Source: a virus. From it: a stretch of DNA of 64,000 nucleotides. Below the pieces are notes generated by a model, which ran no database searches, was not told the DNA's origin, and saw only the letters and a program-made list of their open reading frames with translations. The position numbers and the translations under genes were made by a program. Positions 2,581-62,932 of this stretch are shown in pieces. Location: IMG/VR virus record IMGVR_UViG_3300035670_000153, positions 1 through 64,000 of that record; one strand, given 5' to 3'. The stretch's first letter is position 1. The number at the start of each line of letters is the position of its first letter.

Positions 2581-3177
2581 CTATTCCTCCAATCCTGTCA
2601 ATTGTTTAAACATTGGTAATGTTAAAGCCCATTTACAAAATTCTCTCCATTCAGGTAATTTATGATGTTTACGCTGTGGGCATATTGTTTTTAATTGACT
2701 ATAATTAGTTGTCATTCTTGCAGTTAATTGGAATCCTGACGGATTACTATATAATAATCTCAAGTAGTCTTTTTTATCTTTAGTTTCATTATATTTGTCT
2801 TTTAATTCTTCCATTATAATGATGATTCTTTCATCTACATATTCGTTATATTGGCTTCTTAAATCAAATTTGTTTATACAATGCATTGTTGACTGACTAG
2901 AAACAAAATCTATAAAGTGGTAACGTTCTAATTCTATCCAAGCTTTTAGTGTGAATGTTAAATCAAATTGGACTATTATTCCAATAAGATATTGAGAATG
3001 ACCAGAACCTACTTGGGTACTACCTAAATTAATTGCTCTGGTTAGATGTTTACTGGATAACTCCTTATCCTCTGAATTAATTAAATCTGTCATACTATCT
3101 GTATTTGTCCTTAAAGGATATCCACTTGCCACTATACTTTCTTCTAACCCATATATTTTTACATTATCAATCTTCAT
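2581..3177 (-). CDS. divergent ThyX-like (flavin-dependent thymidylate synthase fold) protein
   Basis: GHSQYL, ELERYHF...SSQSTMH, TNYSQLK...QR.HHKLPEW resemble degenerate ThyX motifs; next to the dNMP kinase. Confidence 0.5.
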   Translation of the reverse strand: MKIDNVKIYGLEESIVASGYPLRTNTDSMTDLINSEDKELSSKHLTRAINLGSTQVGSGHSQYLIGIIVQFDLTFTLKAWIELERYHFIDFVSSQSTMHCINKFDLRSQYNEYVDERIIIIMEELKDKYNETKDKKDYLRLLYSNPSGFQLTARMTTNYSQLKTICPQRKHHKLPEWREFCKWALTLPMFKQLTGLEE

Positions 3178-49409: not shown

Positions 49410-51404
49410 TTATTCATTTATCATATTAAATAATTCATCTAATCCAATAACTTTTACATTTAATTGATTAGCTTTTTCTAATTTACTCCCTGCTTTTTCC
49501 CCTGCAATAAGATAATTTGTTTTTTTAGAAACAGAACTTACAGGAACTCCACCATTATCCTCAATCATTTGAGAGATTTGCTCTCTTTTATAATCACCGA
49601 ATGTACCTGTAACACAAAAAGTTAGTTCTTTCAATCTATGTAAAGATGACTGTGATAATGGGGATTGTTCCATATCTATATTTAAATAACTTAATACATC
49701 TAAAAATGCATTATAGTTATGAGTTGTATTAAACCAATCTTTTAATGAATTACTCATAGCACTTCCAAAATCTTCTAACTTAGTAAAATCAAAATTGTTT
49801 TTAAAAATATCCTCTAAAAATATAGATATATTGTTTTTATAATATTTAGCAATTGTCTTAGATGCAGACTTTCCAATTAGAGGAATACTCATTGAATATA
49901 TTAATCTATGCATTTCTGTATTTTTTGCTTGTTCAATTGATTCGATAAGTTTATTATACGACTTTTTACCAAATCCGTCAAGTGCAATTATTTCTATTTC
50001 TTTATCTTTTTTATTTAATTTAAATAAATCACTGTATGTATTTATTATATCATACTTTATAAATTTGTCAAGTGTTGATTCACTTAATCCATCAATGTTC
50101 ATTGCAGACTTAGACGTAAAGTGTGATAATTTCTTTAATATTTTTCCTGAACACATATCATTAGTACATATTAACACTTCTGTATCATTGTCTTTAGTTA
50201 TTTTAGTATCACTATTACAACTCGGACATTGTTTAATAATTTCCATATTATTAGATTGTGTCAGATTATTAATTATCTGAGGAATAATCATATTAGCTTT
50301 AATAACTTCAACTTCGTCTCCAATACCTATTTTTAATTCTTTTAAAATACTAATATTATGCAAACTAGCTCTTCCTACTGTAGTTCCATCAATTTCAATA
50401 TCATCAAATATAGCTACGGGAGTAATTTGTGTCTTCCCTACACTCCATTCAATAGCTTTAATAGTAGATGTTACACTTTCATCCTTAAATTTAAATGCTA
50501 ATGATGCTAGAGGATGATGTGAAGTATATCCTAAACTTTCACTATACTGTCTACTATCAAAAGTAAATACAATACCATCAATTGGCATTTTTAAATCTTC
50601 TGATATATTTTTTAAAGTAGTAATATAATGATTTAAAGTAACTACATCAGTAAGCGTAGATGATGTACAAGGAGATATAGAAAATCCATATGTTATAAGT
50701 GTTTGTAAATTCTCTAATTTTGAATCAAATATAGTATTTTCTTCATTTTTTGGTAATCTCATTTCAAAAGCATAGAATTTAATAAATCTTTCTGCACAAA
50801 CTTTACTATCCAATTGTCTTACAGAACCCGAAACAAGGTTTCTAGGATGTTTATACTGTGATTCTGTAGGAAGTTTAGAATTAATATATTCAAAGTCATT
50901 TAAATGTATTATAGCCTCTCCTACGACTTCTAATTTATATTTGTATGGTATTTTCAATGGAATATTTTTAAACACTTTAGCATTATGTGTGATATCTTCT
51001 CCTATTGACCCATCCCCTCTTGTAGATGCTCTTTTTAATTCCCCATTATTATATTCTAATTTAACTGTTAATCCATCCATTTTACTCATTACAACATATT
51101 TTTTATTATTTAAAAATTTTGAAACGATTGCAACATCTTTAGTTTTATCAAGAGACAAAAGTCTTATGTCATGTGAAACTTTGTTTAAATCACTCATAAC
51201 TACATATCCAACTTCTTTTGTAGGTGAATTTGATAAAACAATATCATATTTATATTCTAATTCAGTTAATTTATCATATAATGCATCATATTCTTTATCA
51301 GATATAATACTTTTATTATTATTATAGTACTCATGTCTATAGTAGTTTAATTGTTTCACTAAATCATGTATTTCTTTTATTGGAATATCTAGATTATCTC
51401 TCAT
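49410..51404 (-). CDS. ligA: NAD+-dependent DNA ligase
   Basis: YY...ISD.EYD, KMDG, TRGDG, PRN, DGIV, AFKF, Zn finger, HhH, BRCT domain. Confidence 0.96.
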   Translation of the reverse strand: MRDNLDIPIKEIHDLVKQLNYYRHEYYNNNKSIISDKEYDALYDKLTELEYKYDIVLSNSPTKEVGYVVMSDLNKVSHDIRLLSLDKTKDVAIVSKFLNNKKYVVMSKMDGLTVKLEYNNGELKRASTRGDGSIGEDITHNAKVFKNIPLKIPYKYKLEVVGEAIIHLNDFEYINSKLPTESQYKHPRNLVSGSVRQLDSKVCAERFIKFYAFEMRLPKNEENTIFDSKLENLQTLITYGFSISPCTSSTLTDVVTLNHYITTLKNISEDLKMPIDGIVFTFDSRQYSESLGYTSHHPLASLAFKFKDESVTSTIKAIEWSVGKTQITPVAIFDDIEIDGTTVGRASLHNISILKELKIGIGDEVEVIKANMIIPQIINNLTQSNNMEIIKQCPSCNSDTKITKDNDTEVLICTNDMCSGKILKKLSHFTSKSAMNIDGLSESTLDKFIKYDIINTYSDLFKLNKKDKEIEIIALDGFGKKSYNKLIESIEQAKNTEMHRLIYSMSIPLIGKSASKTIAKYYKNNISIFLEDIFKNNFDFTKLEDFGSAMSNSLKDWFNTTHNYNAFLDVLSYLNIDMEQSPLSQSSLHRLKELTFCVTGTFGDYKREQISQMIEDNGGVPVSSVSKKTNYLIAGEKAGSKLEKANQLNVKVIGLDELFNMINE

Positions 51405-51417
51405 TATTATACCATCC

Positions 51418-51990
51418 TTATTTAATTAATTTTTTTAATTCTTTTTGTAATGATTTAATTTTTGCTCTAGTATAAGCAATTTTAATTCCAGTAGTTTTAT
51501 TATATTCATCATCTTTACAACATTTTGCAATACCTTTAGAACCATCATCTAATATTACTATAGTTGCATTTTTACTATGAATTACTTTTTGTGTTCTTTC
51601 AGGAATAGAAAATGCTCCTTTTTTTAATTCTCCTGTAGTATTACTATGTTCTGTGAATGATACATAATATTTATTATATGTAAATATTTTTACTTCATCT
51701 TGAAATTTATTTTTTACTTCATCTTCTAATTTCATTTCTAATTTACATTCACTATCTATTACAAACATTTTCGATGTCCATCTCCACCTTTGATTGTCTT
51801 CTTCTAAATAATAAATATCATCTTCATCTGCCCAATCAATTCCATACTCAGCATGACAAATAGTTACAAGTTTACCTTTTAAATTTAATTTATCCATATC
51901 TGATATATATGAATCATTACCATATGATTCACCTACAATTAAATCTTCTCTTACTTGAACCTTATCTCCAACTTTTAATTTTTTATACAT
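51418..51990 (-). CDS. hypothetical phage protein
   Basis: GGAGG SD, 190 aa ORF. Confidence 0.7.
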   Translation of the reverse strand: MYKKLKVGDKVQVREDLIVGESYGNDSYISDMDKLNLKGKLVTICHAEYGIDWADEDDIYYLEEDNQRWRWTSKMFVIDSECKLEMKLEDEVKNKFQDEVKIFTYNKYYVSFTEHSNTTGELKKGAFSIPERTQKVIHSKNATIVILDDGSKGIAKCCKDDEYNKTTGIKIAYTRAKIKSLQKELKKLIK

Positions 51991-52003
51991 ATAAATCCTC
52001 CTT

Positions 52004-53206
52004 TTAAATAATTTCTATTAAATATTTTACAGTACAAGCTTCTTCTTTGTATACAACAATTTCATCTTTTCTTAACATTCCAGTTCCACCATGAGCATGT
52101 AAACAATTTGCTCCTTTACATGCACTTTGCAGTATATTTTGATTGAAATTATAATATTTACTATCAAAACTATAAACATCATATGCTTTTCCATAAGCAG
52201 TCTCCATCAATAACATAAATCCTGTATGTTCAGACCCATGTGACCATCTTGAACCTGATACGCTTGTGTATCCTCTTGATTTATCAAAATCATTAGATAA
52301 ATAAATCCCGCTGCCAAACATCTTACCCGTAATTACTGCATTTGGTCTTAATACAAGACCAGAATTTAAAATACTCCAAACATTTTCTGACCTAGTACCA
52401 TGGAAAAACAAATCTGTTTTTAATATGTTTTCACTTTTTAAGTAATCATTATATTTATTTTGAGTTTTTTTATTTGTAATCTTCCATCCTTGTTTAAATT
52501 TATCTTGCATAGAACCCATTTTTGATTTTATTGCTTTTATATCTTTATCATTTAACTCTTCAAATTCTATTCCTAAAGCTTCTAATATTGTTTGATTTTT
52601 TGTAACAACATCATCATCATTATTGTTGTTATCTTCAATTTTATTTTGTTTTACTTGACCTTCCATAATATCTAGTAAATCTTGTTCTCGATTTATTATA
52701 GATATGTAGTCATCTTTTGATTCTGCTAAATAATCTACTACTTTTTTCATTTTTCTTGGAATAGTTTTAAATAATTGCAACAATACTTCATTGAATTTGT
52801 TACATTCATTTTCATTTCCAAGATTATAAAGTAAAGTCTGAGCTTCATCAACCATTAATTGTGTAACTTTATCAGATGATATGGTATAATTATCTTTTAC
52901 GGTTTGTCTAGCTATTGCTTGTAATCTCTCAACTATTTTTGAAATATTAGGATTATCTAATGATAAATATTCATTTTTCTTTTTTATAATAGGTACTTCT
53001 ATTAATCTTGTCTGGTCAACATATCCCTTTTTTATTTTGCTATTCAAAGTAGAATGCCATTTACCCATTGGATATGTTTTTGATTGATATGATGTATTTC
53101 CTATCCTACCATATTGGACTTCAAATGTAGAACCTAATTCAATCATTTTATAATACTTATTATTATTTGCATCTGCCTCTACCTTAACAAGATAAACTGT
53201 TTTCAT
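52004..53206 (-). CDS. WGR + PARP-family ADP-ribosyltransferase
   Basis: NNKYY...YGRIG...KIKKGY (WGR); IPR; FHGTR, MFGSGIY, KSRGY, DEIVVY (H-Y-E triad). Confidence 0.88.
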   Translation of the reverse strand: MKTVYLVKVEADANNNKYYKMIELGSTFEVQYGRIGNTSYQSKTYPMGKWHSTLNSKIKKGYVDQTRLIEVPIIKKKNEYLSLDNPNISKIVERLQAIARQTVKDNYTISSDKVTQLMVDEAQTLLYNLGNENECNKFNEVLLQLFKTIPRKMKKVVDYLAESKDDYISIINREQDLLDIMEGQVKQNKIEDNNNNDDDVVTKNQTILEALGIEFEELNDKDIKAIKSKMGSMQDKFKQGWKITNKKTQNKYNDYLKSENILKTDLFFHGTRSENVWSILNSGLVLRPNAVITGKMFGSGIYLSNDFDKSRGYTSVSGSRWSHGSEHTGFMLLMETAYGKAYDVYSFDSKYYNFNQNILQSACKGANCLHAHGGTGMLRKDEIVVYKEEACTVKYLIEII

Positions 53207-53292: not shown

Positions 53293-54312
53293 TCAATGAG
53301 CGTATTTATCAGCTTCATGCACCATCATTAATTCATTATAAAAATCTTCACCAACTAAATTAATTAATTTTTGTTTTGATTTTTCTGTATTTGTATTATG
53401 TAGTCTCATATGAAATTTTATTAATTGACTAATATGTAAAATTTGAAGTATATTATTTTGGTAATTCTCATAGTCATATTCAGGAATTAGTTTTGATATC
53501 ATTTCTAAGAATATTAATATCCCATCATAAGCTGATACATTTTCATGGTTATAAAAATGTGCTATATCAGTTGTTTCTCCTTTATGATTTATAAATGTTT
53601 TAGTAAATTCTTTTCCAATATCATGTAGGAATGTTGCAAATACAACATCATAATTAACTCCATGTTTTTGAATAATATAATCTTTAGCTTTACGACAGTG
53701 TTGCCCTACTGTTAATGTATGATAAGGAGAATCTTGATTTATAATATCTAGTCTTTCAAATATTTTATCAATACTATATTTTTTTAAATCATTTATTTCA
53801 TATTTAATATCAATTTTATCCCAACCTTCAAAATAATAAGGCACATCAAAATTTAAATACATTCTTTTAATAACATCTACAGGAACATTTCTATCTCTAT
53901 TTTTATTTTGTTCTAAACATTTGTCATATGGAGTAAGAATTAAAACAGCAATTTTTTCACAGTCAATATTATTAATCTGTCTTAGGAATTCCATTCTCCT
54001 TTTACTTGATATGTTTGTAGCATCATATACTACATTATTTCCATTTAATAAGTTTGATTTAATTCTATCATGAACAATTTGAAATACATACCATTGATTA
54101 CTTTGGTCATTTATATCTCCTAATACTTCTTCTCTAATTGAGTCTGATGAAACTATGATAGCATTATGTGTCTTTGCTATCTCTTGTGAATGATAAGATT
54201 TTCCACTAGCAGGTAATCCTATCATAAAAAATAATTTTGGTCTTAAATTTAATTTACTCATAACATCATCTTCTTTCTTTTTTATTTTTATGTCGTAAAT
54301 ATATAATATCAT
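53293..54312 (-). CDS. polynucleotide kinase (AAA_33) fused to HD phosphohydrolase
   Basis: GLPASGKS, SSDSIR, YDATN..RR, N.NR.R.VP; H..TV..H, LHDIGK, H, HM, D. Confidence 0.88.
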   Translation of the reverse strand: MILYIYDIKIKKKEDDVMSKLNLRPKLFFMIGLPASGKSYHSQEIAKTHNAIIVSSDSIREEVLGDINDQSNQWYVFQIVHDRIKSNLLNGNNVVYDATNISSKRRMEFLRQINNIDCEKIAVLILTPYDKCLEQNKNRDRNVPVDVIKRMYLNFDVPYYFEGWDKIDIKYEINDLKKYSIDKIFERLDIINQDSPYHTLTVGQHCRKAKDYIIQKHGVNYDVVFATFLHDIGKEFTKTFINHKGETTDIAHFYNHENVSAYDGILIFLEMISKLIPEYDYENYQNNILQILHISQLIKFHMRLHNTNTEKSKQKLINLVGEDFYNELMMVHEADKYAH

Positions 54313-54367
54313 ATATTATTTACAATGTCAAGAGTTCTGTGAAAATTGATTACAGAACTCTTTATCA

Positions 54368-54814
54368 TTAATTAACTTTATTAAATTCAACATTAAAATA
54401 TTCTTGTACTTCTTTTTTAGCATCTTTAAAGCATTTAATATAATATTTTAAATCACTAACTTCTTTTTCTTTCAACTTCATATCTCTAATTAGTTGAATT
54501 ACAACTCGAAACATAGAACCATCATCTTTATAACCAAACCATCCATTATGTATCCATTCCTCTGTTCCATCTGTATATTTAACTAATTTTTGCAGTGACC
54601 TACAACCATCGCTTTTAGTTACAAACCTAATAAAATTATTAATTATAGTAATCTGTTCACTATTATCTAATGGTTCACGTTTTTCTTTTCTTATTTTTTT
54701 TGTAGATGTTTCAGAATCAGAATCCTCTTCAAAATCGTTTTCATTTTCTAACTCAACATCTAAATCTAACTCTAATTCATCTGTAATTAAGCTATTTTTT
54801 GACATAATGCACAA
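54368..54814 (-). CDS. hypothetical protein with acidic N-terminus
   Basis: ORF with GGAGG SD. Confidence 0.65.
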   Translation of the reverse strand: MCIMSKNSLITDELELDLDVELENENDFEEDSDSETSTKKIRKEKREPLDNSEQITIINNFIRFVTKSDGCRSLQKLVKYTDGTEEWIHNGWFGYKDDGSMFRVVIQLIRDMKLKEKEVSDLKYYIKCFKDAKKEVQEYFNVEFNKVN

Positions 54815-54845
54815 CCTCCAATTATTTTATTTTAATATTATTATA

Positions 54846-56168
54846 TTATTCATCTTGAACGCTTTGTGCTTCTTCAATATCTAATACATCATCGGATTTA
54901 ATTATACCTTCTAAAACCTTAAATGTAAAGTTTTTATTTTTTAATGCAGTAAATTTTTCTCTGTTTTCAATTCTTACCACAATACCTTCTCTGATATGAG
55001 ATTTACCAATTGGGTCTACTCCATCAGTATATTTATTTACTCTTTGCATTAAATCTTCTTGAGTAGTATATATAAATTTTTCAAATACAGGAACATGTTC
55101 AATTCCCATTTGTTCACATCTCATTTGTGTTAATTCTGTAGGATATTCTACTACAATTCCATCTTCATTTGTCATAGTCATTCTATATACAAATACCTTA
55201 TTTTCTCCAACATTACATCTATATGTAAACCTAGTAGTTTCACCATATTGTTTAATAAATTCTTTATCTTTTGTTTTACTATTATTGCATTCAGGCATAA
55301 TTAATTGATTACTTTCTGTATATCCTACAATTTCTCCATAAACTGTCTCTCCTTTATGTAATTTACCTAGGAAAAAATTATGCCATTGTTCTCTGAATTT
55401 ATTTGTCCCATAAAATCCACCATCAAATGTATTCAATATGACTCTTCTTGAACCTGAAACATAATCCCATTCTTGTGTAGATTTAAATTTTACACCTAAA
55501 ATATAAAGCAAATTTAAAATGAATCTAGGTAATTTACTATTCCATTTAGATTGAGTAATTTTAAATGCTCTACTTTCTCTTAAACTTGTTCCATGCATTT
55601 TTAGAGATATAGTACAAATATCACCTTCTTTAAATTTAGCCATATTATAAGCTAATTGTTCAGTGTCTCTGTGTTCTGAAAAATAAGGAAATTTATTTTT
55701 TAAACTTATTTTCTTAGAATTACTTACTTTCATTCCTGTATTTTTTGAACCATTTATATGATTTGTTTGAGGAATATACTTATTACAAATTTCTACCCCA
55801 TTTAGGATTGAAATTGTGTCACCTTCTTTTAAAGTACCAACATCGGTAAAACTATGTAAACTATTGACATTTAACAATAAGCCATCTGATTTTTCACCTC
55901 TTAATTTTACTGATGAAACATGTCTTTTGTTTGGGTCTAAATATCCACCAATTTCATTCCCTTGTTCATCTTTCTTACGCAACAAATTATTTGCCTCACA
56001 AAAACCCATATTTAATCTTCCATCTGTTGGGAAATATACCATCATATCTCCAATTTTTACATCTAATCCAACTATAGTATCATTTCCAAATACTGTTGCT
56101 ACTTGTAATCTATCTGCATTAGAATGTTTTCTTAACTCTTTTATTCTTACAATATATCCACAATACAT
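54846..56168 (-). CDS. ATP-dependent RNA ligase (DRB0094/Rnl2-like) with N-terminal tRNA-binding OB-like domain
   Basis: HSNADRL N-terminus, motif I KMHGTS, GSR, YGEIVG, EGIVVR, K.K..F. Confidence 0.85.
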   Translation of the reverse strand: MYCGYIVRIKELRKHSNADRLQVATVFGNDTIVGLDVKIGDMMVYFPTDGRLNMGFCEANNLLRKKDEQGNEIGGYLDPNKRHVSSVKLRGEKSDGLLLNVNSLHSFTDVGTLKEGDTISILNGVEICNKYIPQTNHINGSKNTGMKVSNSKKISLKNKFPYFSEHRDTEQLAYNMAKFKEGDICTISLKMHGTSLRESRAFKITQSKWNSKLPRFILNLLYILGVKFKSTQEWDYVSGSRRVILNTFDGGFYGTNKFREQWHNFFLGKLHKGETVYGEIVGYTESNQLIMPECNNSKTKDKEFIKQYGETTRFTYRCNVGENKVFVYRMTMTNEDGIVVEYPTELTQMRCEQMGIEHVPVFEKFIYTTQEDLMQRVNKYTDGVDPIGKSHIREGIVVRIENREKFTALKNKNFTFKVLEGIIKSDDVLDIEEAQSVQDE

Positions 56169-57220
56169 TATACAATACCTGCTTTCTTTAATATATTTTT
56201 ATTTATTTCAATTACTAATTCATTTATTTTATTTTCATCTGGTTTTAATGGTAATTCAGTATGTTTAATAGAAAATTTTAAATCTTTTTCTGCTTTATCA
56301 ATCATATTAAAAATTTCTGAATAATCTTTATTATTATCTTTATTAATTACATAATCTCCATTCCTTAATGCCATCATAAACTCATGTTCATGTGCTCTAT
56401 TTGTAATAACTCCTTTACCTTCTAATATTTCTTTCCCCATTCTCATAAGTCTTATAATATGCATTACATGCTTATTTAAATGGATATCATCTTTCTTATT
56501 GTTTCTATGATTAAGAGAATCATAATCTTTAATAACATTTTTCCATTCAGATAATATAGATAATAAATCTCTTAATGGATAATGTTTAAGATTTAAATTT
56601 AAAAATATTTCTTCATCAAAATCTGTTTTGTTTGATTTATCAAGAAATAAGTTAATATCTTTCCCATCAAAGCAATGATAATTACGTTCTATATGTTCTC
56701 TTTGATGATTTATACTGTCTAATATGTGTTTCTCTTTTTCTTTTTGAGGATATGAGTCACGTGCTAAAGCATTTTGTAATCTTCTTAATTGAGCTGTAGC
56801 ATATCCACAAAAGGAATGTATTGCTCTTTGAGATAAAAATAAATTGATATTATCTCTTAATATTTTACCTTCATTACTTAATACAAAAATATCTTCTTCT
56901 CTAGTTCCAAATATTTCTAGTACATTGGGATTGCAATTCAATAAAAGATTAATAATTTGTTTAAAATAATAAATAGTAGTATCTGTTTTAGTTTCTACAA
57001 ATGGCTTATCTGTATTATTCATAGTCAGTAAATCATAATAACTATTATGTGCAACTCCTCTAATATCAATATCACTATTTTCATTATTTAATCCATAAGC
57101 ATATGAACCACCTAATGTAAGTATCATTAAATTATCTTTAAATTTATCTTTTAAAAAATCATAATCATTACTTGTATAAATTGTTTTTTGTATCTTTTTT
57201 GAATAATTATTTCCCATATT
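56168..57220 (-). CDS. Pol-beta family nucleotidyltransferase, RlaP/YcgL-like
   Basis: GGSYAYGL...SDIDIRG, NPN.LE, GYA..QL, KH.MH..RL; stop overlaps the RNA ligase start; probable start MNMGN. Confidence 0.85.
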   Translation of the reverse strand, partial: NMGNNYSKKIQKTIYTSNDYDFLKDKFKDNLMILTLGGSYAYGLNNENSDIDIRGVAHNSYYDLLTMNNTDKPFVETKTDTTIYYFKQIINLLLNCNPNVLEIFGTREEDIFVLSNEGKILRDNINLFLSQRAIHSFCGYATAQLRRLQNALARDSYPQKEKEKHILDSINHQREHIERNYHCFDGKDINLFLDKSNKTDFDEEIFLNLNLKHYPLRDLLSILSEWKNVIKDYDSLNHRNNKKDDIHLNKHVMHIIRLMRMGKEILEGKGVITNRAHEHEFMMALRNGDYVINKDNNKDYSEIFNMIDKAEKDLKFSIKHTELPLKPDENKINELVIEINKNILKKAGIV

Positions 57221-57611
57221 CATCTCCCCATATATTTTTAATATTATGTTTCGATTTTTTATCTGCTTTTTTTTCATGGTCTTTTTTTATTTTTTCTATT
57301 TTATTTTGCAGTTTATTATAATTTTTAATAATGAATCCATCTTTTTCTTCTTCATCTAAAAATATAATTTTTTCTAATTGTAATATTTCACCTTCTAAAA
57401 ATCTTGCGTTGATTATAATTCTATTAATTTCCTCTTTTAAAGTTTCAGTTTGTAATATTGAAACTTTGTCCTGTGTTTCTAACATACAATTATATTGTAT
57501 ATTATATTGTCTGCTAGTATCACGTAGTAAAAGACTCAATTCGTTCATTTCATCCATTAAACTTTCAAGCTTTAAATCATTTTCACTTTTTAAAAAATTC
57601 AATATCTTCAT
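57207..57611 (-). CDS. coiled-coil hypothetical protein
   Basis: GGAGG SD. Confidence 0.65.
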   Translation of the reverse strand: MKILNFLKSENDLKLESLMDEMNELSLLLRDTSRQYNIQYNCMLETQDKVSILQTETLKEEINRIIINARFLEGEILQLEKIIFLDEEEKDGFIIKNYNKLQNKIEKIKKDHEKKADKKSKHNIKNIWGDEYGK

Positions 57612-57769: not shown

Positions 57770-59245
57770 TTAAAAATAGTAATTTTCTATTTTCTTAACT
57801 AATGTATCAGTTCCATTTTCTGCTAAATGAATAAAATCAAAAATCTTTTCTGACCATCCTGCTATTATATTTGTATGATGTCCTTTAAATTGTTGTGTTC
57901 CATATCCCATTAAATCAACAGCATGAATCCAAACATTATTATTTATTTTATTTCTATATTCATTTGCAATTTTTTGACAAGGTACTTTATTATTATTATA
58001 CCATGATGATACTCTATCCATATCCCATCCTGAATTAATTTCATTATCAGATAATACAATAATTCTATCTACCTGTATATTATTATTAATTAAATATCTG
58101 AATGGTAATGTTATATCTGTTCCTCCACCATCAATTCTCATTCTTTCAGCATTTGATATAATTCCATTTGTGCTTGGCATAGTAACGTTTCTAATATTTG
58201 TATCAAAAGTAACTAATATTGTATCTTCACAAACATAATTACCCATAGACATTAATAGTGTTGCTATTTCTGAACATTTAATTGTACTCTTATTACTTAT
58301 TGCACTCGACATAGAGCCTGATACATCACAAGCAATTAAAGTTTTACCTTTAAGTGTTTGTACGTTTTGAGTACTTAATTTTATAGCTTCTTCTAAAATA
58401 TTATAAACCTTAGATGAACCTAGATTTTCTTGTTGCAATGTTTTATATGCTGAAAAATATCTGAAAGGTAACTGCTTATTGTTAAGAACAGCATCTCTAT
58501 TTGATAAAAAATCGTAAACCATATCAATATTATTAGGATTTGCTTTTATGATGTTTCTTAAATTTCTAAGCATTGCCATATATCCAACTTTTTTACTTGC
58601 TATTAATCCTTCCCATACTTCTTTTGTATTACCTTTTGCAGATAATTCTGTTTCCCAAGTATAAGGTGTTTCTAATTTATCTTCTAATAATCTTTTAAAC
58701 ATATCATTTTGAACTTCTGTTTTTGCTTTAGGATGTGTTAAACAAACTAAATCTTTAAGTTTTATATCTTTACTTTGGCTATTATATTTTTGTAATTGAT
58801 ACTCATTAAATGTAAGTAATCTATCAGCTAATCCCTTTTTAACAGAGTTTGGGATTGGTTTACCATAAGTATTAATTATATATGATAGTATTTCTGTCAT
58901 ATCATCTACTCTTTCAATTACATTGTTAATAGTTTTTCTTGTAAAAGGTTTTCCATTAACATGATTAGCTAACTCTCCAACTAAAACGTGAGATATACTA
59001 CGTAAATGCATTTCTTTTCTTGCAAACAATGCTAAATTAGCAATGAATTCTGGTTCTTTATTTAATACATTACGAATATTTTCAACTATTTCATTTGAAT
59101 TATCACCATAAAACTTTGATTCATTAAATAATGATGTAAGAACTTGTGTAACTAATTTTTCTTTATCAGACATTGTAAAAGCTTTAACACCTGATTTGTT
59201 TTCAGTAATTGAATTATCACTTGCATTTTTATTAAACTTTGACAT
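57770..59245 (-). CDS. Ro60/Rsr-like TROVE + vWA RNA-binding protein
   Basis: KFY, LALFAR.EMHLRS, F.EYQL.KY, L.HPK, TWETELS, GYMAMLRNLRN, QLPFRY; MIDAS DVSGSM, GGGTD, LSDNE, GWSE. Confidence 0.93.
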   Translation of the reverse strand: MSKFNKNASDNSITENKSGVKAFTMSDKEKLVTQVLTSLFNESKFYGDNSNEIVENIRNVLNKEPEFIANLALFARKEMHLRSISHVLVGELANHVNGKPFTRKTINNVIERVDDMTEILSYIINTYGKPIPNSVKKGLADRLLTFNEYQLQKYNSQSKDIKLKDLVCLTHPKAKTEVQNDMFKRLLEDKLETPYTWETELSAKGNTKEVWEGLIASKKVGYMAMLRNLRNIIKANPNNIDMVYDFLSNRDAVLNNKQLPFRYFSAYKTLQQENLGSSKVYNILEEAIKLSTQNVQTLKGKTLIACDVSGSMSSAISNKSTIKCSEIATLLMSMGNYVCEDTILVTFDTNIRNVTMPSTNGIISNAERMRIDGGGTDITLPFRYLINNNIQVDRIIVLSDNEINSGWDMDRVSSWYNNNKVPCQKIANEYRNKINNNVWIHAVDLMGYGTQQFKGHHTNIIAGWSEKIFDFIHLAENGTDTLVKKIENYYF

Positions 59246-59284: not shown

Positions 59285-59377
59285 TGGCAGGAAGTAAGGG
59301 ATTCGAACCCTTGCATCATAAAAATGACCTAATGCTTTAGCAAAGCATCCTCTTTAGCCATACTTGAGTAACTTCCT
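59285..59377 (-). tRNA. tRNA-Ser(GCT)
   Basis: cloverleaf, ATGCT-TTGCTAA-AGCAT, long variable arm, GTTCGAATC, encoded CCA. Confidence 0.92.
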
Positions 59378-59475
59378 ATAAATATTGTCTATCTGATTGT
59401 AATCTCAATATAATATTATTATATAACTTTATAGTTGTCAATACTTAAATAAAAATAATATTTAATATTAATAAT

Positions 59476-59567
59476 TGGCGGTGAGAGTAGGATTTGAACC
59501 TACGGAGGGCGAAAGCCCCCTCCAGTTTTCAAGACTGGTGCTATAAGCCATACTCTGCCACCCCACC
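59476..59567 (-). tRNA. tRNA-Ser(TGA)
   Basis: CCAGT-CTTGAAA-ACTGG, long variable arm, G73, CCA. Confidence 0.93.
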
Positions 59568-59574
59568 GTGATTA

Positions 59575-59745
59575 TGGTCTCTCCCATCGTCACCTTTATA
59601 AAACTATTTCTAGTATTGGACAGTAAAGGTCTTGCCCTATGCAAACGCTAGAATCGCCCCTAGCTCTTAATAATACCTACATCGAGCAAAGGATTCTTCA
59701 ATCATTTTATAATATTGAGTAGTGTAAAGTGATTGGTATTTAGAA
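59575..59745 (-). ncRNA. candidate structured ncRNA of unknown class
   Basis: GC-enriched spacer with stems AATACC/GGTATT, GCTAG/CTAGC and ACCTTTA/TAAAGGT, ending in ACCA. Confidence 0.35.
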
Positions 59746-59748
59746 AGA

Positions 59749-59832
59749 TGGTGGGTAGAGATAGATTTGAACTATCGTAGCAATTGCAATGGATTTACAG
59801 TCCATCTCCTTTAACCACTCGGACACCTACCC
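59749..59832 (-). tRNA. tRNA-Tyr(GTA)
   Basis: ATGGA-CTGTAAA-TCCAT, variable arm, CCA. Confidence 0.93.
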
Positions 59833-59837
59833 ATATT

Positions 59838-59909
59838 TGTGAATAAGAGGACTCGAACCTCTATCTAACAACTTGAATCGTTAACTTTGACCAATTAAGT
59901 TATATTCAC
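59838..59909 (-). tRNA. aberrant tRNA-like gene (6-nt anticodon loop TTCAAG, no encoded CCA)
   Basis: acceptor GTGAATA/TATTCAC, D loop with TGG, T arm AGAGG-TTCGAGT-CCTCT. Confidence 0.7.
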
Positions 59910-59941
59910 ATAGTTAAAATATCATTTACTTTTATTACTAA

Positions 59942-60015
59942 TGGAGAGTAATATAGGAATTGAACCTATGAATGTGGAGTTGCAGTCCACCACCATACCA
60001 CTTGGTTAATTACTC
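59942..60015 (-). tRNA. tRNA-Cys(GCA)
   Basis: GTGGA-CTGCAAC-TCCAC, U73, CCA. Confidence 0.93.
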
Positions 60016-60020
60016 ATATT

Positions 60021-60152
60021 TATTAAAAGAAAAACGACATCAGTATTTTTTGTTATCCTGCCATTAGACGAATTCATAAATTATGAATAATAGGACTCGA
60101 ACCTAATATCTACACCTTGGAATGGAGTAACTGATATCTACACTTTTTAATA
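60021..60152 (-). ncRNA. Y-RNA-like element 1 with permuted tRNA module (YrlA-like)
   Basis: terminal stem-AGTGTA-GATATCAGT..ACTGATGTC; T arm TAGG-TTCGAGT-CCTA, loop-closed acceptor TTCATA/TATGAA, D arm GTCTAATGGCAGGAT. Confidence 0.8.
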
Positions 60153-60153
60153 A

Positions 60154-60229
60154 TGGTCTACTCATCAGGACTCGAACCTGAAACCTCATCACCCCAAATG
60201 ACGAATTCTACCAATTGAAATATGAGTAG
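60154..60229 (-). tRNA. tRNA-Pro(TGG)
   Basis: CGTCA-TTTGGGG-TGATG, CCA. Confidence 0.92.
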
Positions 60230-60236
60230 ATATTTT

Positions 60237-60335
60237 TTTGTTTTAGAGAAAATCAATATTTGTATTTTTATTTTATCACGCTAGAAACGTGACTATTATG
60301 TAAGAAGTAACAAATATTTACACTTCTAAAACAAA
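60237..60335 (-). ncRNA. Y-RNA-like element 2 (family stem plus one hairpin)
   Basis: AGAAGTGTA-AATATTTGT-TACTTC...ACAAATATT-GATTTTCTCT; internal TCACG/CGTGA hairpin. Confidence 0.7.
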
Positions 60336-60372
60336 TTGTTATTAATAATTAATCTCTTTATCATAAATATAT

Positions 60373-60472
60373 TTTATTATTTAGAGAAAATCTATATTTG
60401 TATGTAAACCCTCGTCTGAGAGTATCTTATATCGGAAAGAAGTAACAAATATATACACTTCTAAATAATAAA
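60373..60472 (-). ncRNA. Y-RNA-like element 3
   Basis: AGAAGTGTA-TATATTTGT-TACTTC...ACAAATATA-GATTTTCTCT. Confidence 0.7.
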
Positions 60473-60544
60473 TATACTTACTTCAATAAAAATTGTAAGG
60501 TTTAATTTAATAGAATTAAACGGCAATTTAATCCTAAATAATTT

Positions 60545-60616
60545 TACTTGAGAAAATCAAATAAAGTATTTATTTTCACCAAAAGAAAGAAGTAACTTTA
60601 TTTTACACTGCAAGTA
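60545..60616 (-). ncRNA. Y-RNA-like element 4 (minimal)
   Basis: TACTTG-CAGTGTA-AAATAAAGT-TACTTC...ACTTTATTT-GATTTTCT-CAAGTA. Confidence 0.7.
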
Positions 60617-60619
60617 TAA

Positions 60620-60695
60620 TGGCTGGAAGACAAGGATTCGAACCTCGATTATCTGAGTCAAAGTCAGATGTCATAACCAATTAGACCATCTTCCA
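60620..60695 (-). tRNA. tRNA-Gln(TTG)
   Basis: TCTGA-CTTTGAC-TCAGA, U1-A72, G73, CCA. Confidence 0.93.
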
Positions 60696-60781
60696 TTATT
60701 GGAATATATTTTGTAAAAGAATTAAATCCATTTACGCATATATTATAAGTATAATTCTTTATAAAAATAATTTTAATTTTA

Positions 60782-61447
60782 TTATTTAATAACTGGTTTA
60801 AATTCTCCAAAATATTTTTCTTCTGCTTCTTTTCTAGCATTTACAGCATATTGAAAAACTTCATATCTGCCTAGAAATATATTCTTATTATTTATTCTAA
60901 TATAGGCATACCATTTTTGTCTTTTATCATCCCATCTTACACCCATTACTCCACTTTTATTTGTTGATACAATATTTTTATTTCTTGCATTTTCTTGACT
61001 AGTACAACATCTTAAATTATATTTAATGTTATTTAATGGATTTCTATCAATATGGTCTACTACAATATTATTATTATCATCAACAACATTCATTATAAAT
61101 CTGTGCAATTTAACATGTTTACTATCTATAGTTGTACATACATAATTATTTTTGCTTTCTATACACCATTTATACATACTACATCTTTCAACATCATTTA
61201 AATCAATTATAGCTTTATTAATAGGATTCCCTTGAATATTATATAAAATAATTTCAGCATAATTATCATATATGATTATTTCATTTACATCATTTCTATT
61301 TCTTTCTTGTTTTGATTCATCAATAATTTTATTATGTCTTTTTAGTTGTTGATAATGTTTACCACATAATATCATATTCCATTTTTTGCTATTTGTCATC
61401 TTATGTGTCTCATTTTCAAAACAACCACAAATATTACAAGTATACAT
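60782..61447 (-). CDS. free-standing HNH-AP2 homing endonuclease inside the tRNA array
   Basis: LHRFIM..VVDHIDRNPLNN.KYNLR..T.QEN.RN; SG..GV.W....KWYAYI......LG.Y (AP2). Confidence 0.88.
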   Translation of the reverse strand: MYTCNICGCFENETHKMTNSKKWNMILCGKHYQQLKRHNKIIDESKQERNRNDVNEIIIYDNYAEIILYNIQGNPINKAIIDLNDVERCSMYKWCIESKNNYVCTTIDSKHVKLHRFIMNVVDDNNNIVVDHIDRNPLNNIKYNLRCCTSQENARNKNIVSTNKSGVMGVRWDDKRQKWYAYIRINNKNIFLGRYEVFQYAVNARKEAEEKYFGEFKPVIK

Positions 61448-61484
61448 TACTTCACCTTCTTTTATTTATTGATTGATAAAATTT

Positions 61485-61650
61485 TATTAGGAGAAATTCG
61501 ATATTGGTTCATATGTTATATTTTGTGCTTATTTAACCTGTCAAAACACAGGACTTAGATTAAAGCACCCCATCTAAGTTTTGTTTTTTTAAAATACGAA
61601 ATTTTAAAATTCTTATAATTTGAAGTAACCAATATCTACACTACCTAATA
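61485..61650 (-). ncRNA. Y-RNA-like element 5 (family stem plus three hairpins, no T/D consensus)
   Basis: TATTAGG-TAGTGTA-GATATTGGT-TACTTC...ACCAATATC-GAATTTCT-CCTAATA; three internal hairpins. Confidence 0.7.
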
Positions 61651-61694
61651 TCTTACCTTTTCTGCTTTTCTTACTATTTCATAAAACAATTTGT

Positions 61695-61765
61695 TAATCC
61701 GAGAAAAAATGCATAGAGTGTTTTTTCGTAAAATGAAGTAACCCTAATGCTACACCTTCGGATTA
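61695..61765 (-). ncRNA. Y-RNA-like element 6 (minimal)
   Basis: TAATCCGA-AGGTGTA-GCATTAGGGT-TACTTC...ACTCTATGC-ATTTTTTC-TCGGATTA. Confidence 0.65.
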
Positions 61766-61839
61766 TGGCAGGGATGGAAAGAATTGAACTCTCGACAATG
61801 GTTTTGGAGACCATTGTTTTACCATTAAACTACATCCCT
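61766..61839 (-). tRNA. tRNA-Trp(CCA)
   Basis: ATGGT-CTCCAAA-ACCAT, G73, CCA. Confidence 0.93.
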
Positions 61840-61847
61840 ATAAGTAA

Positions 61848-61978
61848 TATTCAGAGAACAACTATTAGAAATTTTTTACGTTTTACCATTAAACTACATC
61901 TGCATGTTGCAGATGATTGGACTCGAACCAATATCTTATCAACCCATTTGAAGAAATTCCAATATACACTTCTAAATA
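61848..61978 (-). ncRNA. Y-RNA-like element 7 with permuted tRNA module
   Basis: AGAAGTGTA-TATTGGAA...; T arm ATTGG-TTCGAGT-CCAAT, acceptor CATCTGCA/TGCAGATG closed by ACA, TA, D arm GTTT-AATGGTA-AAAC. Confidence 0.85.
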
Positions 61979-61981
61979 CTA

Positions 61982-62056
61982 TGGTAGCTCATACCAGAAT
62001 TGAACTGATATTTTGTGGTTGAAAACCACATGTCCTTACCATTAGACGAATGAGCC
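61982..62056 (-). tRNA. tRNA-Glu(TTC)
   Basis: TGTGG-TTTTCAA-CCACA, CCA. Confidence 0.92.
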
Positions 62057-62062
62057 ATATTA

Positions 62063-62196
62063 TAGGTGAGAAAATCAAATAGTCTTTTATCGTACTCTAC
62101 CATTTGAGCTATAACACATCATATGATGTATTAGTGAGACTCGAACTCACAACCCCGTCATTAACATTGAAGAAGTACTATTTTACACTACACCTA
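62063..62196 (-). ncRNA. Y-RNA-like element 8 with permuted tRNA module
   Basis: TAGGTG-TAGTGTA-AAATAGT-ACTTC; T arm GTGAG-TTCGAGT-CTCAC, acceptor TAATACATC/GATGTGTTA closed by ATAT, TA, D arm GCTC-AAATGGTA-GAGT. Confidence 0.85.
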
Positions 62197-62200
62197 AATT

Positions 62201-62276
62201 TGGAAGCAGAAGCAAGATTTGAACTTGCGATTTTCAGATTATGAGTCTGACGAGATGACCACTTCTCTATTCTGCA
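62201..62276 (-). tRNA. tRNA-Met(CAT), initiator-like
   Basis: TCAGA-CTCATAA-TCTGA, 1:72 U-U mismatch, CCA. Confidence 0.88.
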
Positions 62277-62301
62277 ATATATAATCTCTTACTGTATTAC
62301 T

Positions 62302-62330
62302 ATCTTATCATGTTATTTAATATCTGTCAA
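62302..62330 (-). promoter_or_regulatory. sigma-A promoter for the tRNA/Y-RNA array
   Basis: TTGACA-17 nt-TAAGAT with TG extension and A/T-rich UP element. Confidence 0.8.
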
Positions 62331-62373
62331 GTACTTTTTAAAAAATTTATTTTTATTTTCTATTAATGTTATT

Positions 62374-62510
62374 AGTTAAGTGTTTTAGCTTATTACTATA
62401 TATGAAAGGAGGTTATCTATGAAAAAATAATTAATATTTATACAGAAAAATATTACTATACTATTTAAACTAATTTTTATTTTATAAAACCACTAAAACA
62501 CTTAACTTAA
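62374..62510 (-). ncRNA. candidate sRNA with 15-bp terminal stem and anti-SD loop
   Basis: perfect inverted repeat AGTTAAGTGTTTTAG/CTAAAACACTTAACT; own promoter just upstream. Confidence 0.5.
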
Positions 62511-62514
62511 TACT

Positions 62515-62543
62515 AGTCTACCATCATACTTTATATTTGTCAA
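62515..62543 (-). promoter_or_regulatory. sigma-A promoter
   Basis: TTGACA-17 nt-TAGACT with TG extension; same upstream AAAAGTAC as the 62302 promoter. Confidence 0.75.
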
Positions 62544-62621
62544 GTACTTTTAAAAATTTTTTATTATACATTTAAATATAAAAACAACGACATTCAAACG
62601 CACTAAATACAATGGTGCTAC

Positions 62622-62731
62622 TTTCATGCAAATTTTTTGCACGTAATTTTTATACGGATGAGAGTTTCATGCAAAAAATTTGCATGAGAATTTTTTATGG
62701 AGAGAGTTTCATGCAAATTTTTTGCACGTAA
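62622..62731. repeat. three palindromic iteron-like repeats (putative origin)
   Basis: TTTCATGCAAAWWWTTTGCAYG at 62622, 62665 and 62707 (43 and 42 bp period), followed by an AT-rich tract. Confidence 0.75.
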
Positions 62732-62932
62732 GTAGCCGTATATATATATAATAGTTACTATATAGATATATAGTATAGTTACTTTATTTTTTGATATATA
62801 AACATATTTACATTTTTACCTCACGGTAACCGATAAAATTTTCAATGAACAAAATTAAAACAAAAATAAATACTAAAACAAAAATCAAAATGAAAATCAA
62901 AATGAAAATCAAAATTAGAATCAAAATAAAAT

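What the first reader, a model, noticed from the sequence alone, without database searches (positions are those of the whole stretch)
60021..62196. Three circularly permuted tRNA mimics, each keeping a different anticodon
Seen: elements at 60021, 61848 and 62063 read T arm, then loop-closed acceptor stem, then D arm. That is a tRNA opened at the anticodon and sealed at the acceptor end. An anticodon-like triplet sits at canonical spacing before the T arm: GUU-AA (Asn) in 62063, UGG-G (Pro) in 61848, and UCC or CCA (Gly or Trp) in 60021. The anticodon stem is largely unpaired. Inference: they cannot be charged and resemble anticodon-cleaved tRNAs. They could act as decoys for host anticodon nucleases or as scaffolds that recruit the adjacent Pnk and ligase through Ro60.
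Basis: partly seen in the sequence, partly recalled or inferred. Interest (0 to 1): 0.8.

Follow-up and report, generated by a model that had tools for sequence, protein, structure and literature searches.

The report
Phage Y RNAs that mimic tRNAs
Three small RNA genes in a phage's tRNA cluster are Y RNAs, the partners of the phage's own Ro60 protein, and their middle part folds like a tRNA; this kind of RNA is already known from bacteria and other phages.

Summary
The sequence observation holds. On the minus strand, 62195..62062 (A), 61976..61848 (B) and 60150..60021 (C) each read T arm, loop-closed acceptor stem, D arm.

They are not a new kind of mimic. They have the YrlA architecture: a Ro60-binding stem made by the 5' and 3' ends, enclosing a tRNA-like module. 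They are 3 of 8 Y-RNA elements interleaved with 10 tRNA genes, directly upstream of a phage Ro60 gene and an RNA-repair cassette.

- **Family membership.** A model trained only on clostridial chromosomal elements next to rsr scores A, B and C at 87, 77 and 60 bits. Rfam's YrlA model stays far below its cut-off.
The tRNA is not opened at the anticodon. A and C keep a local 5-bp/7-nt anticodon-like hairpin, and the ends leave between the D arm and that hairpin.
- **Hairpin in relatives.** 65 of 171 related elements have it at exact tRNA spacing, with U33 and A37 kept. The triplet itself is not conserved: 21 kinds overall, and it differs in every close homologue.
- **Decoy idea.** Untested here, and already proposed in print for YrlA.

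Verdict: a new member of a known kind, with one under-described feature.

The parts
62062..62195 (-). Y RNA A (YrlA type). P1 62195..62191 with 62068..62064; P2 62183..62177 with 62083..62077; anticodon-like arm 62172..62156 (loop 62167..62161, triplet GUU); variable loop 62155..62151; T arm 62150..62134; closed acceptor 62133..62112 (9 bp); D arm 62109..62094.
   Evidence: R1 104.8 bits. R2, trained on bacteria only, 87.4 bits. MFE fold gives all six helices, z -2.46. Coordinates.
61848..61976 (-). Y RNA B (YrlA type). Degraded anticodon-like arm 61953..61937 (loop AAUGGGU, triplet UGG, 3 of 5 pairs); T arm 61932..61916; 7-bp closed acceptor 61915..61897; D arm 61894..61880.
   Evidence: R1 93.5 bits; R2 76.9 bits. 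Rfam YrlA full-length alignment at 26.2 bits, below the cut-off of 69. 21 of 21 nt identical to tRNA-Trp next door.
60021..60150 (-). Y RNA C (YrlA type). P2 60138..60131 with 60043..60036; anticodon-like arm 60128..60112 (loop AUUCCAA, triplet UCC, 4 of 5 pairs); T arm 60106..60090; 7-bp closed acceptor 60088..60072; D arm 60069..60056.
   Evidence: R1 80.1 bits; R2 60.3 bits. Fold z -1.83.
61696..61762 (-). Y RNA E: same end-stem motifs, no tRNA-like module.
   Evidence: R1 34.7 bits, not in the training set. R2 24.3 bits.
61485..61648 (-). Y RNA D: same end-stem motifs, other internal hairpins.
   Evidence: R1 42.0 bits; R2 32.0 bits.
60544..60615 (-). Y RNA F: same end-stem motifs, short insert.
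   Evidence: R1 48.7 bits; R2 41.3 bits.
60378..60465 (-). Y RNA G: same end-stem motifs, hairpin insert.
   Evidence: R1 49.6 bits. Not listed by R2 at E <= 0.01.
60240..60330 (-). Y RNA H: same end-stem motifs, hairpin insert.
   Evidence: R1 45.3 bits; R2 34.6 bits.
59285..62276 (-). Array of 10 tRNA genes (Met, Glu, Trp, Gln, Pro, Cys, one of unclear anticodon, Tyr, Ser, Ser) interleaved with the 8 Y RNAs. Spacers between A, B, C and their flanking tRNAs are 3 to 8 nt.
   Evidence: ARAGORN; Rfam tRNA at 47 to 71 bits. 9 of 10 encode CCA (sequences printed).
57770..59245 (-). Ro60 (Rsr) orthologue, TROVE plus vWA domains, directly downstream of the array.
   Evidence: Pfam TROVE 1e-33, vWA_Ro60 3e-12. 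About 60% identical to clostridial TROVE proteins.
53293..57277 (-). RNA-repair cassette: RlaP nucleotidyltransferase (56168-57277), RNA ligase (54846-56168), a 148-aa ORF, and a kinase plus HD phosphoesterase protein, Pnkp-like (53293-54312).
   Evidence: Pfam RlaP 9e-13, RNA_ligase 3e-8, AAA_33 1e-21 plus HD 6e-5.
62302..62330 (-). Promoter-like site about 25 nt upstream of the first tRNA of the array.
   Evidence: TTGACA-17-TAAGAT with TG, 10 of 12. A consensus match only; the number of such sites in the region is not above shuffles.

Best explanation
A, B and C are YrlA-class Y RNAs encoded by a phage that probably infects clostridia.

Anatomy (shown):
- The 5' and 3' ends pair into a bulged stem. 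P1 comes first, then a bulged base, two invariant pairs, an internal loop with 5' UGYA opposite a 3' U-run, and a covarying helix P2.
- The same stem is present in five further elements of the array.
- The stem encloses a tRNA-like module: anticodon-like arm, 5-nt variable loop, T arm, hairpin-closed acceptor stem, D arm.

Mechanism (inferred):
- The array is transcribed with the tRNAs. The Y RNAs are released when RNase P and the 3' processing enzymes cut out the flanking tRNAs, which lie 3 to 8 nt away.
- The end stem binds the phage Ro60 ring, as shown for other Ro60/Y RNA pairs.
- The L-shaped module brings a tRNA-recognising factor to Ro60. The Ro60 RNP then works with the adjacent Pnkp-like enzyme, RNA ligase and RlaP in quality control or repair of damaged tRNAs during infection.

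The different triplets reflect free variation at positions 34-36 of a conserved anticodon-like loop, and in part a mosaic origin from different tRNA genes. They are not conserved identities.
For: Architecture and family:
- Rfam's YrlA model aligns B end to end in the same order of helices, and A over its tRNA-like core.
- R2, built from 26 bacterial elements next to rsr and no phage sequence, gives A 87.4, B 76.9 and C 60.3 bits. No ordinary tRNA is hit at E <= 0.01.
- R1 finds 190 matches in 83 viral sources and 192 in 78 genome loci, almost all just upstream of Ro60 on its strand.
- In the whole 72-kb record it finds exactly these 8 elements.

Helices:
- On 144 distinct genome-derived rows P1, P2, T, acceptor and D helices are 94-99% paired. 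32 of 35 pairs show changes on both sides, and 0 of 500 shuffles reach the observed values. The alignment was fitted to those helices.
- RNAalifold on a plain MAFFT alignment gives 27 of 30 pairs with compensatory changes.

tRNA elbow:
- The 15:48 Levitt pair is G:C or A:U in 153 of 167 elements, against 81.6 expected from the marginals.
- The T-loop UUC.A and the D-loop GG are invariant or nearly so.

Anticodon-like arm:
- 65 of 171 unique elements have at least 4 of 5 pairs at exactly tRNA spacing. Shuffles give a mean of 17.7, sd 4.0, maximum 34 of 500.
- This is the best of 65 registers tried.
- U33 in 60 of 65, A37 in 56 of 65, A38 in 57 of 65.
- The closing pair covaries: CG 25, AU 23, GC 11, UA 5.

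Context and literature:
- Ro60, RlaP, RNA ligase and a kinase/HD protein lie directly downstream.
- YrlA near Ro60 is reported in 254 bacterial species and 22 phages, with up to 3 per phage listed (PMC4201824).
- A phage Ro60 binds two phage Y RNAs encoded upstream of its gene (PMC12135203, abstract and passages).
Against: - Rfam YrlA scores (27.5 and 26.2 bits; none for C) are far below the cut-off of 69. The same model gives sub-threshold matches in 6 of 14 control genomes.
- The published 5' Ro60 motif GNCGAAN0-1G is absent. These RNAs carry AGUGYA instead.
- There is no expression, end-mapping or binding evidence.
- Single-sequence fold z-scores are modest (-2.46, -1.54, -1.83).
- R1 was trained with A, B and C included. 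R2's training set was picked from R1 hits that passed my hairpin filter.
- Processing by flanking tRNA maturation and the link to the repair enzymes rest on gene order only.
Confidence: 0.85

Rival explanations
1. Decoys or competitive inhibitors. The anticodon-like loops of the Y RNAs occupy host anticodon nucleases (or modification enzymes), and the array offers several different loops. This concerns function and does not exclude the Y RNA identity.
For: - Loop shape is conserved (U33 60 of 65, A37 56 of 65, A38 57 of 65) while positions 34-35 vary over 21 triplets.
- The phage carries its own tRNAs and a tRNA-repair cassette, so tRNA cleavage by the host is plausible.
- The idea is in print for Salmonella YrlA (PMC7790460).
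Against: - The same hairpin occurs in 27 chromosomal elements of clostridia next to rsr, so it is not a phage-specific counter-defence device.
- 106 of 171 elements lack it, and B's copy is decayed.
- Triplets differ between the closest homologues, as expected for drift.
- No nuclease is identified.
Confidence: 0.12
2. Precursors of two-piece tRNA-like molecules. RNase P and a 3' nuclease open the closed acceptor hairpin and CCA is added, as reported for M. smegmatis YrlA. This would give a split molecule with a free acceptor end and an anticodon-like arm, held together by the Y stem.
For: - B and C have exactly 7-bp acceptor stems. Chen 2014 names this length as the determinant of RNase P cleavage, and M. 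smegmatis YrlA is cleaved and CCA-tailed in vivo (PMC4201824).
- Related contigs hold tRNA-like genes with an open acceptor stem that carry the Y motifs inside (L005).
Against: - A has a 9-bp stem with a tetraloop.
- No CCA is encoded.
- Folds of the L005 forms are no better than shuffles (z -0.64 and -0.01).
- There are no RNA data.
Confidence: 0.07
3. Debris of tandem tRNA genes without function: the T arm of one decayed tRNA followed by the D arm of the next.
For: - B's acceptor 5' strand plus D arm is 21 of 21 nt identical to the neighbouring tRNA-Trp.
- Parts of C resemble two other genes of the array.
- Chen 2014 warn that dimeric tRNAs can mimic YrlA in searches.
Against: - The acceptor strands pair with each other across a 3-5 nt loop.
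- The flanking end-stem motifs are shared with 5 non-tRNA-like elements and with hundreds of elements next to Ro60 genes, with compensatory changes.
- The real adjacent-tRNA junction in this array scores 17.5 bits against 80-105.
Confidence: 0.03

Closest known systems
YrlA Y RNAs of bacteria and phages (Salmonella, M. smegmatis, mycobacteriophages; Rfam RF02553; Chen 2014, Wang 2018)
   Same: - Encoded within 4 kb of Ro60 on the same strand.
- The ends form the Ro60-binding stem.
- The module has the order T arm, closed acceptor, D arm.
- tRNA tertiary bases are kept, including the covarying 15:48 pair.
- Several copies per locus.
- The GGUUAY motif before the hairpin is visible in the published seed alignment.
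   Different: - Scores far below Rfam's cut-off.
- 5' motif AGUGYA instead of GNCGAA.
- 7-10 nt linker between the D arm and the connector helix.
- A hairpin with anticodon-arm geometry. Salmonella YrlA is described as lacking the anticodon loop, and its connector is called the anticodon stem. Chen 2014 call the hairpin V and equate it with the variable arm.
Thermus phage phiLo Ro60 with Yrl1 and Yrl2 (PMC12135203)
   Same: Phage-encoded Ro60 with Y RNAs upstream of its gene. Binding was shown experimentally, and a ternary complex with host PNPase was reported.
   Different: - Two Y RNAs with a CGAA motif.
- No tRNA-like module is mentioned in the passages I read.
- Here there are 8 elements, 3 of them tRNA-like, embedded in a tRNA array and followed by RNA-repair genes.
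D. radiodurans Yrn1
   Same: A Ro60-bound Y RNA with a T-arm-like stem-loop. Chen 2014 model a potential anticodon arm in it.
   Different: Opposite orientation of the T and D elements relative to the ends, a 6-nt loop, and no variable arm. It tethers PNPase.
Circularly permuted tRNA genes of the red alga Cyanidioschyzon merolae (recalled, no call)
   Same: The 3' part of a tRNA is encoded upstream of its 5' part.
   Different: Those are matured into ordinary tRNAs through a circular intermediate, with a bulge-helix-bulge motif at the ends. Here the ends form a conserved Ro60-type stem, the acceptor is closed by 3-5 nt, and no such processing is indicated.

Membership tests
YrlA (Y RNA-like, RF02553) | Encoded within 4 kb of a Ro60 orthologue, on the same strand (criterion of Chen 2014). 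| tested here: met
   Ro60 at 59245..57770. C, B and A begin 776, 2603 and 2817 nt upstream on the same strand.
YrlA (Y RNA-like, RF02553) | Module in the order T arm, closed acceptor-like stem-loop, D arm, enclosed by a stem made of the 5' and 3' ends. | tested here: met
YrlA (Y RNA-like, RF02553) | tRNA tertiary nucleotides kept, with compensatory 15:48 pair. | tested here: met
   - U8, A14, G18 G19 and U54 U55 C56 A58 are present in A and B (read).
- 15:48 is complementary in 153 of 167 family members, against 81.6 expected.
- C is ambiguous at position 48.
YrlA (Y RNA-like, RF02553) | Infernal score at or above Rfam's gathering score (69 bits). | tested here: not met
   - A 27.5, B 26.2, C no YrlA match.
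- None in 18 related loci either.
- Chen 2014, Table S1, nevertheless lists YrlA candidates for Clostridium beijerinckii and C. clariflavum.
YrlA (Y RNA-like, RF02553) | GNCGAAN0-1G motif near the 5' end. | tested here: not met
   None in the 5' strands of A to C. AGUGUA stands at that place.
YrlA (Y RNA-like, RF02553) | Bound by Ro60; modified by TruB and DusA. | not testable with these tools
   No RNA run holds the stretch.
Clostridial rsr-linked Y RNA family (defined here by models R1 and R2) | Significant score with a model trained without phage sequences. | tested here: met
   A 87.4, B 76.9, C 60.3 bits, E 2e-19 to 1e-12.
tRNA | Open acceptor stem with a 3' end for CCA; cloverleaf in native order. 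| tested here: not met
   - Not called by ARAGORN.
- Rfam tRNA gives 22.3 and 17.2 bits against a cut-off of 29.
- The acceptor is closed by 3-5 nt.
Permuted tRNA gene (C. merolae type) | Ends joined through a bulge-helix-bulge motif to give a mature tRNA. | not tested
   - No bulge-helix-bulge search was run.
- The ends form a 5+2+7-9 bp stem with conserved Ro60-type motifs, shared with non-tRNA-like elements.

The most novel reading that the evidence does not exclude
Many Ro60-linked Y RNAs of clostridia and their phages, and by eye those of actinobacteria in the published seed alignment, would be complete tRNA cloverleaves, anticodon arm included. They would be circularly permuted at the junction of D arm and anticodon arm, not anticodon-less mimics. 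The loop keeps the tRNA U-turn signature (Y32 U33 ... A37 A38, often U36) while positions 34-35 change freely. A phage array would then display several different anticodon loops on Ro60, as bait or decoy for enzymes that read anticodon loops: anticodon nucleases, t6A-type modification enzymes, or the repair ligase.
Probability: 0.2. Interest if true: 0.7.

Novelty: new member of a known kind. Interest (0 to 1): 0.4.

Why it matters
- It places a large Y-RNA array (8 elements, 3 of them tRNA-like) inside a phage tRNA cluster, next to Ro60 and a complete end-healing and sealing cassette. That makes a compact system for asking what Ro60/Y RNPs do with damaged tRNAs.
- The conserved anticodon-like hairpin is treated in print as a variable arm. 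It gives a concrete handle, positions 34-36, to test the published but untested idea that YrlA competes with tRNAs for anticodon nucleases.

Tried and rejected
- **Rfam at gathering score.** No YrlA in the window or in 18 related loci.
- **INPHARED phages.** No close relative by DNA. By protein, 223 records, all under 60% identity.
- **The search for related loci with the single Ro60 protein.** Nothing. An alignment of 22 homologues then worked.
- **Sequencing runs.** No RNA holder listed.
- **The search of earlier findings.** Nothing on this genome.
- **L005 tRNA-like genes carrying the Y motifs as an insert.** Folds are no better than shuffles, so this is left as an observation.
- **tRNA-Pro as the source of B's anticodon-like arm.** 29 of 38 columns match. 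However, B's stem also matches the A-type stem of relatives, so the origin is left open.
- **Within-locus diversity of triplets.** Not tested. With 21 triplet kinds, two random copies would usually differ anyway.
- **Papers.** PMC10870794 and PMC6047535 (reviews by Sim, Wolin and colleagues) are not held. The dimeric-tRNA model is cited from Wang 2018's discussion only. Chen 2014's supplementary figures (PDF) could not be read and may show the V hairpin of clostridial YrlAs.
Full report
**What is in the sequence.** Positions 59285-62276 hold ten tRNA genes, all on the minus strand (ARAGORN; Rfam tRNA at 47-71 bits). Between them, read on the minus strand, lie the three elements of the finding: A at 62195..62062, B at 61976..61848 and C at 60150..60021. 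Each contains:
- a T arm with loop UUCGAGU;
- a stem whose two strands are joined by a 3-5 nt loop (9, 7 and 7 bp);
- the dinucleotide at tRNA positions 8-9 (UA in A and B, UC in C);
- a D arm with G18 G19 (coordinates).

**What encloses the module.** Each element starts with a 5' strand carrying AGUGUA and, a few bases on, GUUACUUC or a near copy. Each ends with a 3' strand carrying a U-run followed by CUC.
- The two strands pair as an outer helix P1, one bulged base, two invariant pairs, an internal loop, and a second helix P2 whose sequence differs in every copy but stays complementary.
- Five more elements of the array (D, E, F, G, H) have the same two strands around short unrelated inserts.
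- Downstream on the same strand follow Ro60 (TROVE plus vWA), an RlaP nucleotidyltransferase, an RNA ligase, a kinase/HD-phosphoesterase protein, a PARP/WGR protein and an NAD-dependent DNA ligase.

An end stem next to Ro60 that encloses a tRNA-like module with a closed acceptor is the published definition of YrlA-class Y RNAs (PMC4201824, passages; bioRxiv 10.1101/312249, passages).

**Tests of that identity.**
- *Rfam.* The YrlA model aligns B end to end and A over its core in the expected order of helices, but only at 26.2 and 27.5 bits against a cut-off of 69. C gets no match. The same model gives sub-threshold matches in 6 of 14 control genomes. Rfam alone therefore proves nothing.
- *Collecting relatives.* The phage Ro60 has thousands of homologues. 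The nearest, about 60% identical, are from Clostridium, Acetivibrio and uncultured phages. An alignment of 22 of them fetched 80 viral loci and 78 genome loci.
- *Model R1.* Built from 27 elements, A to C included, it finds 190 matches in the viral set and 192 in the genome set. Almost all lie just upstream of Ro60 on its strand. In the whole 72-kb record of this phage it finds exactly the eight elements named above. The next best match is a real tRNA-tRNA junction at 17.5 bits.
- *Model R2.* Built only from 26 bacterial chromosomal elements, it scores A, B and C at 87.4, 76.9 and 60.3 bits. It also finds four of the five other elements. It hits no ordinary tRNA at E <= 0.01.
- *Prior listing.* Chen 2014's Table S1 already lists YrlA candidates beside the Ro60 genes of C. 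beijerinckii and C. clariflavum. Table S2 lists phages with up to three.

The elements thus belong to a family already filed as YrlA, even though Rfam's model does not reach them. They also lack the published 5' motif GNCGAAN0-1G.

**Support for the fold.**
- RNAalifold on a plain MAFFT alignment predicts P1, P2, T, acceptor and D helices, with compensatory changes in 27 of 30 pairs.
- On 144 distinct genome-derived rows these helices are 94-99% paired, and no shuffle of 500 reaches the observed covariation. That alignment was fitted to these helices.
- The tertiary 15:48 pair is G:C in 87 and A:U in 66 of 167 elements, 153 complementary against 81.6 expected.
- Single-sequence folds recover all helices of A (z -2.46). 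They are weaker for B (-1.54) and C (-1.83).

**The anticodon claim.** Counting back from the T stem with a 5-nt variable loop, A has a 5-position stem (4 pairs) around the loop AUGUUAA. C has 4 of 5 pairs around AUUCCAA. B has 3 of 5 pairs around AAUGGGU, and only with a 4-nt variable loop. The chain enters and leaves the cloverleaf between the D arm and this hairpin, so the permutation point is 26/27 and not the anticodon loop.

The family data are as follows.
- Of 171 unique elements with T arm followed by D arm, 65 have at least 4 of 5 pairs in exactly this register, and 30 have all five.
- Shuffling the 27 nt upstream of the T stem gives a mean of 17.7, sd 4.0, and at most 34 in 500 trials.
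- This register has the highest mean pairing of 65 tried: 2.99 of 5, next best 2.77. 38% pass here, against 5-26% for the other twelve variable-loop lengths.
- The loops read U33 in 60, A37 in 56 (G in 8), A38 in 57 and C32 in 41 of 65.
- The variable loop is mostly AGGUC-like.
- The closing pair is CG 25, AU 23, GC 11, UA 5.
- On an alignment not fitted to this hairpin it is 55% paired over all 144 rows, as expected for a feature of a subset.
- The 65 comprise 36 viral, 27 bacterial and 2 window elements.

The position of the triplet is therefore conserved, but its identity is not.
- There are 21 different triplets: GUU 13, UUU 9, and UGU, GCU and UCU 5 each. U36 occurs in 48 of 65.
- The closest homologues in two related phage contigs differ from A (UUU, UUU, UUG), from B (UAU) and from C (UCA).

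In print this hairpin is the 'V' stem-loop, equated with the variable arm. The connector helix is called the anticodon stem, and Salmonella YrlA is said to lack the anticodon loop. By sequence features the hairpin here is an anticodon arm followed by a class-I variable loop. Which helix stacks under the D stem is untested. Hairpins of the same kind are visible by eye in the actinobacterial rows of Chen 2014's seed alignment.

**Origin of the modules.**
- B's acceptor 5' strand and D arm are identical over 21 of 21 nt to the tRNA-Trp gene 8 nt downstream. Its anticodon-to-T part matches the phage tRNA-Pro(UGG) best, in 29 of 38 columns.
- C's anticodon-to-acceptor part matches the odd tRNA-like gene at 59837-59910 in 43 of 53 columns. 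Its D arm matches tRNA-Glu.
- A has no clear donor in the window.

This mosaic fits the proposal, cited in Wang 2018's discussion, that YrlA arose from dimeric tRNA transcripts. It also explains part of the difference between the three triplets.

**How it most likely works.**
- *Shown:* the anatomy, the family, the linkage to Ro60 and to repair genes.
- *From established knowledge:* Y RNA end stems bind Ro60. A phage Ro60 binds the Y RNAs encoded upstream of its gene (PMC12135203). YrlA modules are substrates of tRNA enzymes (PMC4201824).
- *Inferred:* transcription with the tRNAs from a promoter-like site at 62330..62302. Release by tRNA processing, given 3-8 nt spacers to the flanking tRNAs. 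Recruitment of a tRNA-recognising partner to Ro60, in concert with the adjacent healing and sealing enzymes, as suggested for jumbo phages (PMC7824862).

The decoy reading remains possible and is already published as a hypothesis (PMC7790460). The presence of the same hairpin in bacterial chromosomal copies argues against a purely anti-defence role.

**Verdict.** The interpretation needs two corrections: the break point, and conservation of the triplet's position but not its identity. The elements are new members of the known YrlA class. The array of 8 is among the two largest in my sample; most loci show 1-3 (best 150 matches per set only). The anticodon-arm reading of the 'V' hairpin is the part worth following up.

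Noticed in passing
window 59837-59910 (minus strand): tRNA-like gene with an anticodon loop that ARAGORN cannot read. It is the only one of the 10 without an encoded CCA. Its 3' two-thirds match element C's anticodon-to-acceptor part in 43 of 53 columns, with a compensatory change in the acceptor stem. It looks like an open-acceptor relative of C.
   Followed up: partly
window 61880-61900 and 61817-61837: 21 identical bases shared by Y RNA B and the neighbouring tRNA-Trp (acceptor 5' strand plus D arm). This suggests recombination or gene conversion between tRNA genes and Y-RNA modules inside the array.
   Followed up: partly
window 60782-61447 (minus strand): HNH endonuclease with an AP2-like domain, inserted in the middle of the tRNA/Y-RNA array. 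Probably a homing endonuclease.
   Followed up: no
window 49410-53206 (minus strand): A PARP catalytic domain with a WGR domain, and an NAD-dependent DNA ligase with BRCT, follow the RNA-repair genes. Two ORFs without Pfam match lie nearby (51418-51990, 54368-54814).
   Followed up: no
L003:1995-2113; L007:167-293 and 1757-1892: Y-RNA end stems that enclose a tRNA-like module in native order (D arm, anticodon arm, T arm) with no acceptor stem. The Y stem takes the acceptor's place. The L003 fold has z -2.93.
   Followed up: partly
L005:1936-2066 and 2929-3075: tRNA-like genes with an open 7-bp acceptor stem that carry the Y-stem motifs as an insert between D arm and anticodon arm. The second has a perfect GUU anticodon arm. 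This would be the circular permutation of the window's elements. The interior folds are no better than shuffles.
   Followed up: partly
window 62300-62930: Intergenic region with two copies of a promoter-like motif (62543..62515 and 62330..62302, both TTGACA with a TG extension). A long inverted repeat around 62614-62700 gives chance matches to microRNA families.
   Followed up: no
Chen 2014, supplementary text 2: In the published YrlA seed alignment the actinobacterial and mycobacteriophage rows show, by eye, the GGUUAY motif followed by a hairpin with 7-nt loops such as CUUCUAA and a UGGUC-type variable loop. The anticodon-arm geometry may therefore be general in YrlA outside the enterobacteria.
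   Followed up: no
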